The notes under the pieces: model-generated
Told to the model about the DNA's origin: nothing
The model's database searches: none
Seen by the model: the letters and a program-made list of their open reading frames with translations, nothing else
Shown: positions 21,377-25,830 of the stretch, one piece after another
Position numbering within the stretch: position 1 is the first letter of the stretch
Layout of the letters: the number at the start of each line of letters is the position of its first letter
Program-made: the position numbers and the translations under genes
Source of the DNA: Candidatus Hodarchaeota archaeon
GTDB lineage: Archaea; Asgardarchaeota; Heimdallarchaeia; Hodarchaeales; Hodarchaeaceae
Length of the DNA stretch: 25,830 nt
Direction: 5' to 3'
NCBI GenBank assembly: GCA_016839785.1
Contig: JAEOTQ010000187.1
Location: 1-25,830 of the forward strand

Positions 21377-24166
21377 CTACATGGATTCGTTGTCTTTTAA
21401 GTCAAAATAATTTTCAATCTGCCTCACAATCGGGGATAACATTATGAGGGTGTATAATTTCTGTAAATTCTCCTCAATTTGTATGATCTGGAAGGCCTTT
21501 TCAATTTTTTTCAATAAACCATTTCTAATGTCAGAAAATTCTGATTTATCAACCGTAGTGGTATTTTCTGTTAGAAAAATGGAATATTGGATTCTTAAAA
21601 ATCGCTCTATATTAATCTGGGGCAGAGATTTATGTAGAAAATCACAGACATCCTTGAAAAGTTGATTCTGATTTGAAGAAGTGAGAATCTGATCCTCAAA
21701 ATAACTCACGTAAACCATAACTTTGGCGACTCTTTCCTCAATGAACATGATGATTGGTTGGAATTCATTTGTAATTTTCTCAAGGGAGTGTAGAAATATT
21801 AAATAATCAGCTATCCGTGCCAGAAGAACATGATTATTCAATATTTTAGGAATGGGAAAATTAGAGAGAGATTCACCAAAAAATTCTAGTTGAGATCCCT
21901 TTTTTTTCCCCATCCAAGAGAACCAATAGAACGAGACTTTTGATTGTAAAAGGAGTAAAAGGGCTTTCAGTTTTGGAGTTGAATTTCTCACTTCTTGAAT
22001 GAAATATACATCCTGAGCTGCAAACCATTCGGTACAACTGTATGCAAAATGAGTTTTTCGTGCCCTTTGAGGAGTAATCAGTTTTGGAGAGAGAAACATT
22101 TCTTTTTTTCTAGGACGATTAATGTAAGGAGGATGATCTAATGAATTTTCCATTGCTATTTGGTAGTGATCAAGATGGTTCTTAATATTTGGAACCATCG
22201 ATAAGTCAACCTCCTTCCTTACCAGATATAAAACTCGTCGCTCAGTATAAACTCTTGTTGAATAAGGTCTTATTGATGAACTTTTGTATAAGGGGCGTAA
22301 ATATTTTTTTTCGTCATTAGTGAAGGTCTTAATGGTATTTTGATCAGTTACATTGTTAAGATCAAACACAAATATTCCACGATTCTCCCATATTGTTGGG
22401 TATCCATATTTCTCAATTTGGCGTTTAGTAATTTTATTTAGGCCTGTAATTAAGCCTTCTTTCACTCTATAAGTTGATTCTCTAATTGGGGTACTAACTT
22501 TTGTTAATTTTTTCAGGATAAAGGATACATCCGCAGGTAGAAAGTGAAAATAATCATCCCAATCATTTAGGGTAAGATTTTTCTGATTAATTTGGTAAAT
22601 GAGTTGATCAGACATTTTATCCAGTAGCTTTTCTCTTTGAGAAATTATGTTGGTATAAAAAACACAATTAATAGAGGGATTTTGCATTTCTAATTTCTTT
22701 ACGGTTAAAATACTGGAGTGTATCCCATGAGCTCCCTCGAATAAGCGATTATCTCCAAAATCGATAAATTCTAATATGAAAGTTTCTTCAAAAATCCTTT
22801 TACGAAGTTTAGAAGCTCCCGAGGCCGTCAACCAATAACTTGTTGCTAAGAATGATACAATCCCTCTTGGTTTAGCTAGATTGATGGCTAGCTGAAAAAA
22901 TAAATACCAAATATCGAGCTTACCTTCATAGTATGTTGGTAGAGCAACAGAGTATTTCCTAAATATCTCTTTATTATCACTTTCTCCAATGTAAGGAGGA
23001 TTTGTTAGGACTAGGGAAAATCGTGGTTTTTTCAACATTTCAGGGAAAAGATTTTCCCAATCCAACAGTAAGGCATCCCCAATTTTTAAATTACACTGGA
23101 ATTTACTATTGTAAGATAAGTTTGTTTTTATTTTTTTTACCCGAAGAGCAATATAAAGAAAAAACCGTGCTTTTGTAAAAGGAATCACAGAGGGATCTAT
23201 ATCCACTCCATACAAAGCTTTTGGAAATATCAAATGCATTAAGATATAGAATTCAATTTCTGCTGTATCTTTGATCTTTGTAAGGTCAATAGTTTCCCAT
23301 ATTTCTTGGGAACGACTGGTATAGAGATCTATTGTAATTGATTCGTCTAAATTTCTAGCTTTCTCTATAATTAGAGAATATAATACTAATAATTCATCAA
23401 CAACGCTTTCTAAGAATTGTCCAGTACCAACAGCTGGATCTAGGACTGTTAAATTCCTTAATGCTTCATAAAGTCTTAAAATGCCATTTTTGTCAAGAGA
23501 TTTAATAAAGGATGTCCAAGTTTCCCGGGAATATGTATCGTTGAGCCCCATTTGATCCATCAGTGCTGTTCTTACTGAATAGCGGGAGATATAAACGGTT
23601 AGTTCAACAGGTGAATAATACACTCCCCCAATCCTTTTTTTTTTGGACGAAATCAACCATTCATATAATGATCCCAAAAAAACTCCATATTTTTCAAACT
23701 TTATTTGATCAAGTACTGTTAACAATCCTGATGATCCGAATATTACATTAGTACTTGAATCGGATAAAGAAAAGAAATTATTGGGAAACCGAGATTTCTT
23801 TTGAAGAAGTTTGATATCAATAAATATCGCTGATTTACATCCTCGTAACCTCCCAAAATGTGAATCAATGCAGATATGATTATCATTCAATGTGGATAGT
23901 CTAAGTAGTAATGAATTCATAAAATTATTATATGTATTGTAAGGAATACGAGGATCTCTTTTTTCAATCAAGTGAAACATCGATGTAAAAAAGTTTTCAT
24001 CATTATTGAAATACAAATTTTTCTGTAATCCCCACAAAACCGATACTTGCATGATATATTGATTTATGAACTCTCTATTAGAACCATCAATGGGAGAACT
24101 GGCTGAGAGAAAATTATCTCTTATTTTGCTCAGTAGAATTAACAGATTTTTCCATTGATCACTCAT
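21377..24166 (-). CDS. Gamma-class N6-adenine DNA methyltransferase (Eco57I/type IIG-like, TaqI-like TRD), apparently without nuclease domain
   Basis: GVYYSP, VLDPAVGTGQF (motif I), LYGVDID, TNPPY (motif IV), C-terminal PKLI...LLQSK...FPIP. Confidence 0.88.
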   Translation of the reverse strand: MSDQWKNLLILLSKIRDNFLSASSPIDGSNREFINQYIMQVSVLWGLQKNLYFNNDENFFTSMFHLIEKRDPRIPYNTYNNFMNSLLLRLSTLNDNHICIDSHFGRLRGCKSAIFIDIKLLQKKSRFPNNFFSLSDSSTNVIFGSSGLLTVLDQIKFEKYGVFLGSLYEWLISSKKKRIGGVYYSPVELTVYISRYSVRTALMDQMGLNDTYSRETWTSFIKSLDKNGILRLYEALRNLTVLDPAVGTGQFLESVVDELLVLYSLIIEKARNLDESITIDLYTSRSQEIWETIDLTKIKDTAEIEFYILMHLIFPKALYGVDIDPSVIPFTKARFFLYIALRVKKIKTNLSYNSKFQCNLKIGDALLLDWENLFPEMLKKPRFSLVLTNPPYIGESDNKEIFRKYSVALPTYYEGKLDIWYLFFQLAINLAKPRGIVSFLATSYWLTASGASKLRKRIFEETFILEFIDFGDNRLFEGAHGIHSSILTVKKLEMQNPSINCVFYTNIISQREKLLDKMSDQLIYQINQKNLTLNDWDDYFHFLPADVSFILKKLTKVSTPIRESTYRVKEGLITGLNKITKRQIEKYGYPTIWENRGIFVFDLNNVTDQNTIKTFTNDEKKYLRPLYKSSSIRPYSTRVYTERRVLYLVRKEVDLSMVPNIKNHLDHYQIAMENSLDHPPYINRPRKKEMFLSPKLITPQRARKTHFAYSCTEWFAAQDVYFIQEVRNSTPKLKALLLLLQSKVSFYWFSWMGKKKGSQLEFFGESLSNFPIPKILNNHVLLARIADYLIFLHSLEKITNEFQPIIMFIEERVAKVMVYVSYFEDQILTSSNQNQLFKDVCDFLHKSLPQINIERFLRIQYSIFLTENTTTVDKSEFSDIRNGLLKKIEKAFQIIQIEENLQKLYTLIMLSPIVRQIENYFDLKDNESM

Positions 24167-24312
24167 AAATTAACCATCTAGGGTTATAGAAGCTGAGAAT
24201 ATTATACTTCTTTCGATAAAATGGAGGAGGAATGATGAAGAGTTTCATCCCTCTTAAAAAAAATATGACTGAGGATTTTAAAATTTGAAAACTCAATAAA
24301 AAAAAGCATGAA

Positions 24313-24335
24313 TCTCTCACATGAAAGGTGAGAGA
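24313..24335. repeat. Perfect 8-bp hairpin
   Basis: TCTCTCAC-ATGAAAG-GTGAGAGA. Confidence 0.7.
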
Positions 24336-24411
24336 ACACCCGACAGGTTTTTTTTCAAGCCTTATTGCGCTTAGGAACGTGTTACACGAAAAAAAGGGAA
24401 AGAGTTACAAA

Positions 24412-24601
24412 GGGTGGGTGAAATGCCAATGAGTGCCGTAATCCAAGTCGTTCTCCTTCTCGAGTGATGTCAATTTGATTTACACTGGAAAAAAAGCGGA
24501 CTGGTGGAAACATAACGCGAAACCCAAGGGTCTCTGAGACCGTGATAAGAAGACGTGTCAGGTTTCCGTATTACGGCACTACAACCACCAAGGTTTTGGC
24601 A
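24412..24601 (+). ncRNA. Candidate IS110 bridge RNA (structured left-end RNA)
   Basis: 11-bp stem AGTGCCGTAAT (24432-24442) / ATTACGGCACT (24570-24580) encloses two hairpins, each with a large internal loop; lies directly upstream of the transposase ATG. Ends are approximate. Confidence 0.6.
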
Positions 24602-25735
24602 ATGAAAGTATGCGGCTTAGATGTTCATAAATCCCGCTGTTGGGTGCATATTCGGGACGAGAATGGTGTAATTTGTGAAACCACCTTTTTACGGACTCCT
24701 GAAGGCCTTGAGACACTATACACATTAGTATCAGACCATCAAGTAACAAAAATTGTGATGGAATCTACCAACAGTTACTGGCTTCCGATTTATCGGTTAC
24801 TACATAAAAATTTTGACTGTTATGTCATTAACGCGTACCAAAGAAAGGTACTCGGCAAACATAAAACAGATACTCGCGATGCAGAAGATCTTGCACGTTG
24901 GGGACTGTTAGATGTCGTTACTGCTTCGTACGTCCCATCTTTAGAAATTCAAGAGCTACGACAACTAGTACGCACTAGAACGAATGTACTCCAAACTAGG
25001 ACGGCCGTTGTCAGTCAGCTCAAAGCTCTACTGGAAGGTCAATGCTCTGGGCTCACTAGTGAATTGAAAAGCCTTGAAAGCAAGTATGCACAACTATATC
25101 TGCATGACTGGCGTAAATCTCATCCACAGCCTTCCTTCCAAGACTGGATTAGTCTGCAATCTCACACCAGTACCCGTGAAGCGCTTCTTAGACGTAAAAA
25201 AGTTCTTAGTTATTGGTGGGAACGACCTTTGTCTTCATCCATGCAAAGTCTAGTAGATCTTCATCTGAGACAGTATGAATTTTACAGTCAAGAAATAAAA
25301 AATTTAGATAAGCTCATTAGTGATGTTGTTAGGAGTTCAGGTCTTCAAAAAACAGTAGATCTTATGCAATCTATACCTGGACTAGGATTCATTACTTGTA
25401 CCACTGTAGCATGCGAGCTAGGTTCTTCTAACAGATTTAGAACAGGTCGTGAAGCAGCTGCAAGCTGTGGTTTAACTCCTCGACTCCATGGGTCAGCAGG
25501 TCGGATCAGATCAGGACGAATCACCAAACATGGTCCAAGTAGTGTACGAAGAGCTCTGTATATCACCTGTAAGACTGTAATTCAGCGTTCACCATGGCAT
25601 CGTGACTTTTTCCAGCGTATTAAGAGTCGACGAGGAGGAATGATAGCATTAGTCGCTCTCTGTCGGAAGTTAGTTGAGTTATGTTGGAAACTCTGGCACA
25701 CAAATACGGCCTATCGATGTAATATTTCTAATTGA
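24602..25735 (+). CDS. IS110-family transposase/recombinase
   Basis: DEDD domain CGLDVHK, VMEST, KTDTRDA; coiled-coil LRQLVRTR; C-terminal SIPGLG and GLTPRLHGSAG (catalytic Ser), RITKHG, ALCRKL. Start ATG 24602. Confidence 0.95.
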   Translation: MKVCGLDVHKSRCWVHIRDENGVICETTFLRTPEGLETLYTLVSDHQVTKIVMESTNSYWLPIYRLLHKNFDCYVINAYQRKVLGKHKTDTRDAEDLARWGLLDVVTASYVPSLEIQELRQLVRTRTNVLQTRTAVVSQLKALLEGQCSGLTSELKSLESKYAQLYLHDWRKSHPQPSFQDWISLQSHTSTREALLRRKKVLSYWWERPLSSSMQSLVDLHLRQYEFYSQEIKNLDKLISDVVRSSGLQKTVDLMQSIPGLGFITCTTVACELGSSNRFRTGREAAASCGLTPRLHGSAGRIRSGRITKHGPSSVRRALYITCKTVIQRSPWHRDFFQRIKSRRGGMIALVALCRKLVELCWKLWHTNTAYRCNISN

Positions 25736-25830
25736 GGTTTCATGACAACTAATCTTTTTGGTGATGTTTTCTGTTAGCGGAGCCTCTCTTTTACCGTTTC
25801 GTTGCCCTTAGAGAAAAAAAAGAAAGAAGA

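What the first reader, a model, noticed from the sequence alone, without database searches (positions are those of the whole stretch)
24412..24601. Two-loop bridge-RNA-like structure upstream of an archaeal IS110 recombinase
Seen: a perfect 11-bp closing stem (24432-24442 / 24570-24580) encloses two hairpins. Hairpin 1: CCA(A)GTC 24443-24449 / GACTGG 24499-24504, inner stem AGTG/CACT, loop strands CTCCTTCTCG and GGAAAAAA (these could partly pair). Hairpin 2: GGAAAC 24506-24511 / GTTTCC 24562-24567, apical GGTCT/AGACC, loop strands CGAAACCCAAG and GTGATAAGAAGA. Established: IS110 elements such as IS621 encode a bridge RNA with target- and donor-binding internal loops in the non-coding end. Inference: this is such an RNA, with an outer stem clamping both loops into a three-way junction.
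Basis: partly seen in the sequence, partly recalled or inferred. Interest (0 to 1): 0.7.

Follow-up and report, generated by a model that had tools for sequence, protein, structure and literature searches.

The report
Asgard archaeal IS110 bridge RNA
The folded stretch is very likely the guide ("bridge") RNA of a jumping gene in an Asgard archaeon, built as a three-armed junction whose first loop spells out the DNA site where the element inserted.

Summary
It is a perfect 11-bp stem (24432-42/24570-80) around two internally looped hairpins, 21 nt upstream of an IS110-family recombinase gene (24602-25735). The stem and the fold energy are at chance level on their own. The support is comparative. 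A model built from this RNA finds the same three-way junction, with different sequences, directly upstream and on the same strand of 9 further IS110 genes among 17 other loci. An empty-site contig sets the element ends at about 24305 and 25826-28. The 3' strand of loop 1 repeats the element's own left flank for 9 nt or more in 9 of 11 relatives, against 0 of 100 unrelated pairs, and changes together with the flank in two pairs of close relatives. The 3' strand of loop 2 repeats the right-end junction for 6-9 nt. The 5' strand of loop 1 pairs plausibly with the right flank, but a general scan does not beat controls. The 5' strand of loop 2 is unexplained. The RNA lies upstream as in IS110, but its guide order is the one described for IS1111. 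I file it as a new variant of a known kind. No expression data exist.

The parts
24305..25828 (+). Whole IS110-family element: 1522 bp plus one copy of the 2-bp crossover. The left end is 297 nt and the right end 91 nt.
   Evidence: An empty-site contig in run X3 joins 24304 directly to the right flank. Homology to the G003 copy runs 24298..25841 with unrelated flanks. The ends are uncertain by 1-2 nt because of the A/G-rich repeats.
24303..24306 (+). Left crossover zone: AA by strict alignment, or AG if the A-run differs by one base between alleles.
   Evidence: Comparison of the left junction, the right junction and the empty-site contig.
25827..25829 (+). Right crossover zone (AA or AG). 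The window ends at 25830, and the right flank continues on contig C90.
   Evidence: In run X4 a near-identical copy diverges after 25829.
24313..24336 (+). Hairpin in the left end (TCTCTCAC / GTGAGAGA), upstream of the bridge RNA. Its role is unknown.
   Evidence: Read from the sequence. It is conserved in L004.
24348..24356 (+). TTTTTTTTC, an inverted copy of GAAAAAAAA at 25813-25821. A sub-terminal inverted repeat.
   Evidence: L014 has a 17-bp inverted repeat in the corresponding places.
25813..25821 (+). Right partner of the sub-terminal inverted repeat (GAAAAAAAA).
24405..24411 (+). TTACAAA, a possible archaeal TATA-like box about 27 nt before the outer stem. Inference only.
   Evidence: Lies in a block conserved between the window and L004. 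No transcript data.
24432..24580 (+). Bridge RNA core, 149 nt, a three-way junction.
24432..24442 (+). Outer stem, 5' strand. It pairs with 24570-24580.
   Evidence: All 11 pairs show two or more pair types among the 11 relatives.
24570..24580 (+). Outer stem, 3' strand.
24443..24504 (+). Arm 1, the target-binding arm: basal stem 24443-49/24499-504 with bulged A24446, an internal loop, and apical stem-loop 24463-24486.
24450..24462 (+). Loop 1, 5' strand (S1). The polypyrimidine guide UUCUCCUUCUC is at 24451-61, and the polypurine right flank is its proposed partner on the top strand.
   Evidence: L004 version: 8 Watson-Crick pairs in a row, starting at the junction. L014: 9 in a row next to the junction. 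The window's own site is weaker. A general scan is no better than controls.
24487..24498 (+). Loop 1, 3' strand (S2). AAAAAAAGC at 24489-97 has the same sense as left flank + crossover + first bases of the element.
   Evidence: In run X4 the RNA A-run and the junction A-run are both 9.
24506..24567 (+). Arm 2, the donor-binding arm: basal stem 24506-11/24562-67, second stem 24515-19/24554-58, and apical stem-loop 24529-41.
24520..24528 (+). Loop 2, 5' strand (S3), AAACCCAAG. No partner found.
24542..24553 (+). Loop 2, 3' strand (S4). AAGAAGA at 24547-53 has the same sense as right-end tail + crossover + first bases of the right flank.
24602..25735 (+). IS110-family DEDD recombinase, 377 aa.
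   Evidence: Pfam PF01548 + PF02371. NCBIfam NF033542, 241.5 bits. PDB ISCro4 and IS621.

Best explanation
Window 24432-24580 encodes the bridge (guide) RNA of a 1.5-kb IS110-family insertion sequence (about 24305-25828) in an Asgard (Hodarchaeales-type) archaeon.

The RNA folds into a three-way junction. An 11-bp closing helix holds two arms, and each arm has a basal stem, a large internal loop and an apical hairpin.

Arm 1 reads the target. Its 3' loop strand has the same sense as the left flank, the crossover and the first bases of the element, so it pairs with the bottom strand. Its polypyrimidine 5' loop strand pairs with the polypurine top strand on the right of the crossover.

Arm 2 reads the element's own joined ends. 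Its 3' loop strand matches the right-end tail, the crossover and the first flank bases, like a guide followed by 'handshake' bases.

By analogy with IS621, recombinase tetramers loaded with this RNA would bring the excised circle's end-to-end junction together with an A-run/purine-rich target and exchange strands at an AA (or AG) dinucleotide.

Shown here: the element ends, the conserved fold, and the match between loop 1 and the flank with co-variation. Inferred: transcription, protein binding, the exact pairing register, and the chemistry.
For: 1. The gene is an IS110 'RNA-guided transposase'. It is related to the solved bridge recombinases at E about 1e-21. D7, E54, D90 and D93 are invariant among 12 relatives.

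2. The element is mobile and its ends are set. The copy in G003 has unrelated flanks, the syntenic G003 locus lacks the element, and an empty-site contig exists.

3. Model R1 finds the same architecture directly upstream and on the same strand of 9 of 17 further IS110 loci, ending 22-178 nt before the start codon in the 8 of them whose start codon was mapped. Of the 41 pairs, 38 show a change on both sides among the 11 RNAs. On the 4-sequence alignment 95.6% of cells pair, against 29-45% when partners are slid.

4. The loop 1 3' strand matches its own left flank for 9 nt or more in 9 of 11 elements and in 0 of 100 unrelated pairs. Close relatives do not cross-match: L014/L097 give 5-6 nt and L100/L103 give 4-6 nt, while each matches its own flank for 9-10 nt.

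5. The RNA core is 93% identical between the window and L004 (10 differences in 149), against 83% for the whole element. Four of the 10 differences fall in the loop 1 5' strand.

6. G-U pairs occur in the stems, so the fold holds only on the + strand as RNA.
Against: No RNA run holds the sequence, so expression is untested. The fold energy and the 11-bp stem are at chance level by themselves.

The percentage of paired cells does not discriminate on model-fitted alignments. Six off-place hits are 94% paired too.

The loop 1 5' strand against the right regions is no better than unrelated pairs in a general scan: own mean 6.8 nt, unrelated 6.57 nt. Its register on the window's own flank is ambiguous because of GAA repeats.

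The loop 2 5' strand has no convincing partner in any element. The loop 2 3' strand exceeds cross-controls only in L103.

No Rfam family matched. Seven of the 17 further IS110 loci gave no hit and one gave a doubtful hit. With default filters 84 loci gave none: 78 more distant metagenome loci, and 6 of the 8 loci just named that gave no clear hit, searched again.
Confidence: 0.85

Rival explanations
1. A target-only guide, like a seekRNA. Arm 1 guides target choice, while arm 2 is mainly a protein-binding scaffold, and the element's own ends are recognised by the recombinase through the sub-terminal inverted repeats rather than by RNA pairing.
For: The loop 2 5' strand has no partner. The loop 2 3' strand matches only 6-7 nt in most members and is not above cross-controls except in L103. 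Sub-terminal inverted repeats of 9 and 17 bp exist. Siddiquee et al. describe 70-100-nt seekRNAs carrying only the target matches (passages read).
Against: The loop 2 3' strand match sits on the independently mapped right junction in the window, L004 and L014, 88-91 nt after the stop codon. It has AA at the same loop position in all four aligned subfamilies. In L103 the 9-nt match tells the right junction from the near-identical left junction.
Confidence: 0.2
2. A cis-acting 5' leader of the recombinase mRNA that controls translation or stability, not a trans-acting guide.
For: The structure ends 21 nt before the start codon. The minimum-energy fold can extend the outer helix with TGCCAA/TTGGCA next to the ribosome-binding region.
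Against: A leader has no reason to copy the DNA outside the element and to change with it. In L006 the RNA ends 178 nt before the gene.
Confidence: 0.05
3. A chance inverted repeat, or a DNA-level cruciform or binding site.
For: An 11-bp inverted repeat is expected about 2.6 times by chance in such a window. The fold z-score is -1.27.
Against: The architecture recurs at the same place in 9 further loci with compensatory changes. G-U pairs would be C-A mismatches on the other strand. The minus strand of the same stretch scores 11.4 bits against 188.6, though the plus strand is a training sequence.
Confidence: 0.03

Closest known systems
IS621 / ISCro4 bridge RNA (IS110 group; Durrant et al. 2024, Hiraizumi et al. 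2024)
   Same: Both are encoded in the long left end, upstream of and on the same strand as a DEDD recombinase. Both have two internally looped hairpins. Each arm has a basal stem with a bulged A, a G after the stem, a guide, a short linker, an apical hairpin and a second guide. Both guides point their 3' ends at the crossover. Extra bases after the 3'-strand guides match the partner DNA, like handshake guides. The proteins are related (E about 1e-21).
   Different: [quoted passage not shown] Here the strand that pairs with the bottom-left is the 3' side. IS621 has a 5' stem-loop and a flexible linker between the arms, and its two loops in one complex come from two RNAs. Here the arms are 1 nt apart and clamped by an 11-bp helix. 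The crossover here is AA or AG, not CT. No partner was found for the loop 2 5' strand. The host is archaeal.
IS1111-group seekRNA / bridge RNA (Siddiquee et al. 2024; Durrant et al. 2024, section 12)
   Same: The complement of the top strand comes before the match to the bottom strand. Sub-terminal inverted repeats of 9-17 bp are within the 7-17 bp range quoted for IS1111. A multi-loop junction is mentioned for many IS1111 RNAs.
   Different: IS1111 RNAs lie downstream of the gene in a long right end. Here the RNA lies upstream, and the left end (297 nt) is longer than the right end (91 nt). The left inverted repeat is 33-43 nt from the end, not a few bases.
Archaeal C/D-box sRNA with Nop5 (proposed distant relatives of IS110 systems; Vaysset et al. 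2024 preprint)
   Same: Both are guide RNAs with two bulged guide regions, bound by a protein with a Nop-like domain (passages read).
   Different: No C/D boxes or kink-turn were identified in this RNA. It guides DNA recombination, not RNA methylation.

Membership tests
Bridge RNA of IS110-family elements | Encoded in a non-coding end of an element with a DEDD_Tnp_IS110 + Transposase_20 recombinase | tested here: met
   for the protein. The RNA lies inside the mapped element, 21 nt upstream of the gene.
Bridge RNA of IS110-family elements | Conserved fold with two internal loops, kept through compensatory changes | tested here: met
   Eleven RNAs; 38 of 41 pairs have changes on both sides. Slid controls pair at 29-45% against 95.6%. 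Caveat: the alignments are fitted to the model. Placement upstream of the genes is the independent support.
Bridge RNA of IS110-family elements | One loop carries guides to both strands of the target, flanking the crossover | tested here: inconclusive
   3' strand: met (9 of 11 own flanks at 9 nt or more, against 0 of 100 unrelated pairs). 5' strand: matches at the expected position in L004 (8 nt) and L014 (9 nt), but the general scan is not above controls.
Bridge RNA of IS110-family elements | The other loop carries guides to both halves of the joined element ends (donor) | tested here: inconclusive
   3' strand: 6-9 nt across the right-end tail and crossover. 5' strand: no partner.
Bridge RNA of IS110-family elements | The crossover dinucleotide is repeated in the guides | tested here: inconclusive
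   AA is present in the 3' strands of both loops in all aligned members, and UU at the 3' end of the loop 1 5' strand in 9 of 11, but not in the window or L004. The crossover in the window is AA or AG.
Bridge RNA of IS110-family elements | Transcribed and bound by the recombinase | not testable with these tools
   No RNA run listed.
Bridge RNA of IS110-family elements | Match to a curated RNA family model | tested here: not met
   No Rfam 15 hit on the + strand over 24412-24601 at E up to 10. I did not check whether Rfam holds a bridge RNA family.
IS110 group (as opposed to IS1111 group) | RNA upstream of the gene; left end longer than right end | tested here: met
   Left end 297 nt, right end 91 nt.
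IS110 group (as opposed to IS1111 group) | The guide that pairs with the bottom strand comes before the guide that pairs with the top strand | tested here: not met
   The bottom-strand guide is the 3' strand of loop 1.
IS1111 group | Sub-terminal inverted repeats of 7-17 bp | tested here: met
   9 bp in the window and L004 and 17 bp in L014, but the left copy lies 33-43 nt inside the element.
IS1111 group | RNA downstream of the gene in a long right end | tested here: not met

The most novel reading that the evidence does not exclude
Asgard and other archaea carry a distinct class of bridge recombinase systems. A compact, roughly 150-nt RNA clamps the target and donor arms in a closed three-way junction. 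It uses the IS1111-type guide order from the IS110-type upstream position, recombines at AA, and aims at oligo-A/purine tracts such as the complement of archaeal oligo-T terminators. This would be an intermediate or third architecture between the two described groups. Because the arms are only 1 nt apart, the way one RNA serves a synaptic complex must differ from IS621 or be more constrained.
Probability: 0.4. Interest if true: 0.65.

Novelty: new variant of a known kind. Interest (0 to 1): 0.55.

Why it matters
Bridge and seek RNAs have so far been characterised in bacterial elements. My two literature searches listed no paper that describes an archaeal bridge RNA. Vaysset et al. count 662 archaeal IS110 recombinases but, in the passages I read, do not describe their RNAs.

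This locus and its 10 relatives give a concrete archaeal RNA model with mapped ends and a readable target code. It mixes features used to separate the IS110 and IS1111 groups, which bears on how the RNA moved between element ends during evolution. It also offers a compact, closed RNA scaffold that could be tested as a programmable recombinase.

It is a natural place to look for links between IS110 systems and archaeal C/D-box guide RNPs. NCBI already names these proteins 'RNA-guided', so that such an RNA exists is expected. What is new is its form.

Tried and rejected
- **Rfam:** the scan of 23500-25830 at E up to 10 found nothing on the + strand in the region.

- **Further copies:** the own genome has no second copy, only a 127-nt contig-end overlap with C90. 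The syntenic intergenic region in G003 is too diverged to give a base-exact empty site.

- **Expression:** no RNA holder is listed for the stretch.

- **First boundary models:** I first took the A8G repeat at 24298-24306 and 25814-25822 as the crossover. I rejected this when the empty-site contig showed 7 more bases belong to the element. For L014 I first read a palindromic target centred on TCGA. I rejected it when loop 1 matched sites 45-50 nt further out on the left and about 20 nt further out on the right.

- **IS621-order guides:** the 5' strand with the same sense as the left flank does not fit.

- **Antisense RNA:** it does not restore the IS621 order (reasoning only).

- **Loop 2 5' strand:** local alignments to 75 nt of each end, both strands, in three elements gave only 5-9-nt hits at non-corresponding places.

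- **L009:** its left flank also holds good sites for the loop 1 5' strand and the loop 2 3' strand. I could not explain this, and the contig ends 107 nt upstream of the RNA.

- **General scans:** loop 1 5' strand against right regions, and loop 2 3' strand against right regions, are not above cross-controls.

- **Model searches:** R1 with default filters found nothing in 84 loci. Default filters lose weak hits, so this does not show absence.

- **Supplements:** supplementary files of the papers were not opened. Durrant's supplementary data on thousands of predicted bridge RNAs may already contain archaeal members or this architecture.

Full report
**The observation.** RNAfold returns the same three-way junction and adds a 5-bp helix ACGCG/CGUGU inside hairpin 2. 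My 41-pair structure for 24432-24580 contains only standard pairs.

Taken alone this is not remarkable. The fold z-score is -1.27. Perfect 11-mer inverted pairs within 160 nt occur 6 times in the window, against a mean of 2.6 in 100 random sequences of like composition. Whether the feature is real therefore depends on comparison.

**The surroundings.** The ORF 24602-25735 (+) carries DEDD_Tnp_IS110 and Transposase_20. It scores 241.5 bits on NCBIfam NF033542, 'IS110 family RNA-guided transposase'. Its nearest solved relatives are the ISCro4 and IS621 bridge recombinases, at E about 1e-21.

Upstream lies an Eco57I-like methylase gene on the other strand. The window is a whole contig of a 248-contig genome. 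Its last 127 bases overlap the end of contig C90, which continues the right flank. The same-genus genome G003 is titled Candidatus Hodarchaeota in its record, so the host is an Asgard archaeon.

**The element and its ends.**
- G003 has a copy that is 86% identical in protein. DNA homology runs from 24298 to 11 bases beyond the window end, and the flanks are unrelated.
- The locus in G003 that is syntenic to the window's flanks has no element.
- Laying Logan contigs of four runs on the window gave the decisive piece. In run X3 a contig follows the left flank to 24304 and then continues with the window's right flank. This is the empty site, CTCAAT-A7-GAAGAAGGG.
- Strict comparison with the two junctions leaves an overlap of AA. 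The element is therefore 24305-25826 plus AA, with a left end of 297 nt and a right end of 91 nt.
- If the A-run differs by one base between alleles, the overlap becomes AAG and the crossover could be AG.
- Run X4 adds a diverged copy with another left flank, and a near-identical copy whose right flank diverges after 25829.
- A 9-bp sub-terminal inverted repeat (24348-56 / 25813-21) is present. The 50%-identical relative L014 has a 17-bp one in corresponding places.

**Is the fold conserved?**
- I built covariance model R1 from the window and L004 with my structure and searched the other IS110 loci with filters off.
- Among 17 further loci, R1 found a full-length match directly upstream and on the same strand of the recombinase gene in 9. 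These are L014, L097, L009, L006, L096, L007, L101, L103 and L100. The match ends 22-178 nt before the start codon in the 8 of them whose start codon was mapped; in L097 it was not.
- One further hit (L104) is doubtful, and 7 loci gave none.
- The sequences are quite different (G+C 0.39-0.63), but the plan is the same. There is a closing helix, then arm 1 with a basal stem, a G, a U-rich strand, a hairpin, an A-rich strand and the basal stem again. A 1-nt linker leads to arm 2, and 2-4 nt lead back to the closing helix.
- On the 4-sequence alignment 95.6% of cells pair, and 32 of 41 pairs change on both sides. With the partners slid by 1-3 columns only 29-45% pair.
- On all 11 RNAs, 38 of 41 pairs change on both sides.
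- A caution applies. These alignments are fitted to the model, and six off-place hits are 94% paired as well. The independent evidence is therefore the placement of the hits and the guide matches below.
- With default filters R1 found nothing in 84 loci: 78 more distant metagenome loci, and 6 of the 8 loci above that had given no clear hit, searched again. This does not show absence.

**Does loop 1 read the target?**
- The 3' strand of loop 1 (24487-98) contains AAAAAAAGC. This has the same sense as the left flank, the crossover and the first bases of the element.
- For the 11 elements, the longest same-sense match between this strand and the 300 nt upstream of the element's own RNA is 9, 9, 10, 9, 9, 6, 9, 10, 7, 9, 9 nt. 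Among 100 unrelated pairs the maximum is 8 and the mean 5.9.
- The matches lie 49-125 nt upstream of the RNA, at the element's edge.
- Close relatives do not cross-match. L014 and L097 differ by U/C in the RNA and T/C in the flank. L100 and L103 differ by C/G in both.
- In run X4 the RNA A-run and the junction A-run are both 9.

**The 5' strand of loop 1 (24450-62)** is polypyrimidine in all members.
- In L004 it gives 8 Watson-Crick pairs in a row with the top strand, starting at the junction.
- In L014 it gives 9 in a row next to the inferred junction.
- On the right flank seen in X4 the window's version could form 8 Watson-Crick and 3 G-U pairs. This was counted by hand, assuming that copy's RNA is the same.
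- On the window's own flank several registers give 7-9 pairs of 10-11.
- A general scan of the regions downstream of the genes does not separate own from unrelated pairs (6.8 against 6.57 nt), because all these strands and flanks are low in complexity.
- I therefore call this guide plausible but not shown.

**Does loop 2 read the donor?**
- The 3' strand (24542-53) contains AAGAAGA. This is the right-end tail, the crossover and the first flank bases, and it sits 88 nt after the stop codon at the mapped junction. L004 gives the same, and L014 gives 6 nt at 91 nt after the stop.
- In L103 a 9-nt match picks the right junction rather than the nearly identical left junction, which loop 1 matches instead.
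- Across five elements only L103 exceeds the cross-controls.
- AA stands at the same position of this strand in all four aligned subfamilies, and UU ends the loop 1 5' strand in 9 of 11, though not in the window or L004. This fits a family-wide AA crossover.
- The 5' strand of loop 2 (AAACCCAAG) found no partner in 75 nt of either end, on either strand. It remains unexplained.

**Comparison with what is known.**
- Durrant et al. [quoted passage not shown] They also state that IS110-group RNAs lie in a long left end and IS1111-group RNAs in a long right end, with 7-17-bp sub-terminal repeats.
- Hiraizumi et al. (passages read) describe the arm layout, the flipped-out A, the syn G, the handshake guides, and a linker that lets the two loops of one complex come from two RNAs.
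- Siddiquee et al. (passages read) state that in IS1111 seekRNAs the top-strand complement comes first, while in the IS110 type the order is reversed.
- The present RNA sits upstream as in the IS110 group, but its bottom-strand guide is on the 3' side, which is the IS1111 order. It also has sub-terminal repeats in the IS1111 length range.
- Both guides still point their 3' ends at the crossover, and the bases after the 3'-strand guides match the partner DNA as handshake guides would. The chemistry inferred for IS621 can therefore apply with left and right exchanged.
- The arms are 1 nt apart and closed by a helix, which differs from the IS621 layout.

**Novelty and limits.**
- That an IS110 element has a guide RNA is expected, and NCBI's family name already says so.
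- My two searches listed no paper that describes an archaeal bridge RNA. Vaysset et al. count 662 archaeal recombinases (passages read). I could not see supplementary tables, which may already hold such predictions.
- I rate this a new variant of a known kind.
- Not shown here: transcription, processing, protein binding, the exact register of the guides, whether the crossover is AA or AG, and any role for the loop 2 5' strand.

Noticed in passing
window 24231-24273: A C/D-box-like stretch lies in the left flank. It has AUGAUGA at 24233-39 and CUGA at 24270-73. The Rfam sR55 hit scores 20 bits, E 0.081, below the gathering score of 35. It is too short for a full archaeal C/D sRNA and may be chance.
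   Followed up: no
window 21377-24166 (-): A 929-aa Eco57I/MmeI-like type IIG restriction-modification methylase gene lies directly upstream of the element. G003 has a diverged homologue at the syntenic place without the element.
   Followed up: partly
window 25829-25830 and L002 (C90) continuation: The target is an A7 run followed by GAA repeats, about 30 nt beyond the stop codon of a convergent gene. On that gene's strand it reads as oligo-T tracts, like an archaeal terminator. The element may aim at such tracts.
   Followed up: no
window 25704-25830 = end of contig C90: The contig breaks within 2-4 bases of the element's right end, with a 127-nt overlap to C90. This fits an assembly-graph branch caused by alleles or copies with other right flanks, as seen in runs X3 and X4.
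   Followed up: partly
L009 reverse complement 26-60 (G023:C752): The 60 nt left of this distant element hold near-perfect sites for three of its own guide strands in a row: loop 1 5' strand, loop 2 3' strand and loop 1 3' strand. The stretch also resembles the element's own right end. It could be a relic of an earlier copy or a tandem junction. It is unexplained.
   Followed up: partly
left junctions of L100, L103, L014 and the window: In several members the left flank resembles the element's own right-end tail. An example is TTTTTCATGG[G/C]AAA at both junctions of L103. The 3' strands of loops 1 and 2 are therefore near-copies that differ at the discriminating bases.
   Followed up: partly
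L097 (G085:C52) and L005 (G042:C20): These are decayed copies of the closer subfamily. Only C-terminal gene fragments are detectable (52-61% identity). In L097 the RNA and both junction-like sequences are still recognisable.
   Followed up: partly
window 24542-24601: The longest ORF begins at GTG 24542, inside arm 2 of the RNA. Relatives align from ATG 24602, giving MKVCGLDVHK, so gene callers that take the longest ORF would hide part of the RNA.
   Followed up: yes
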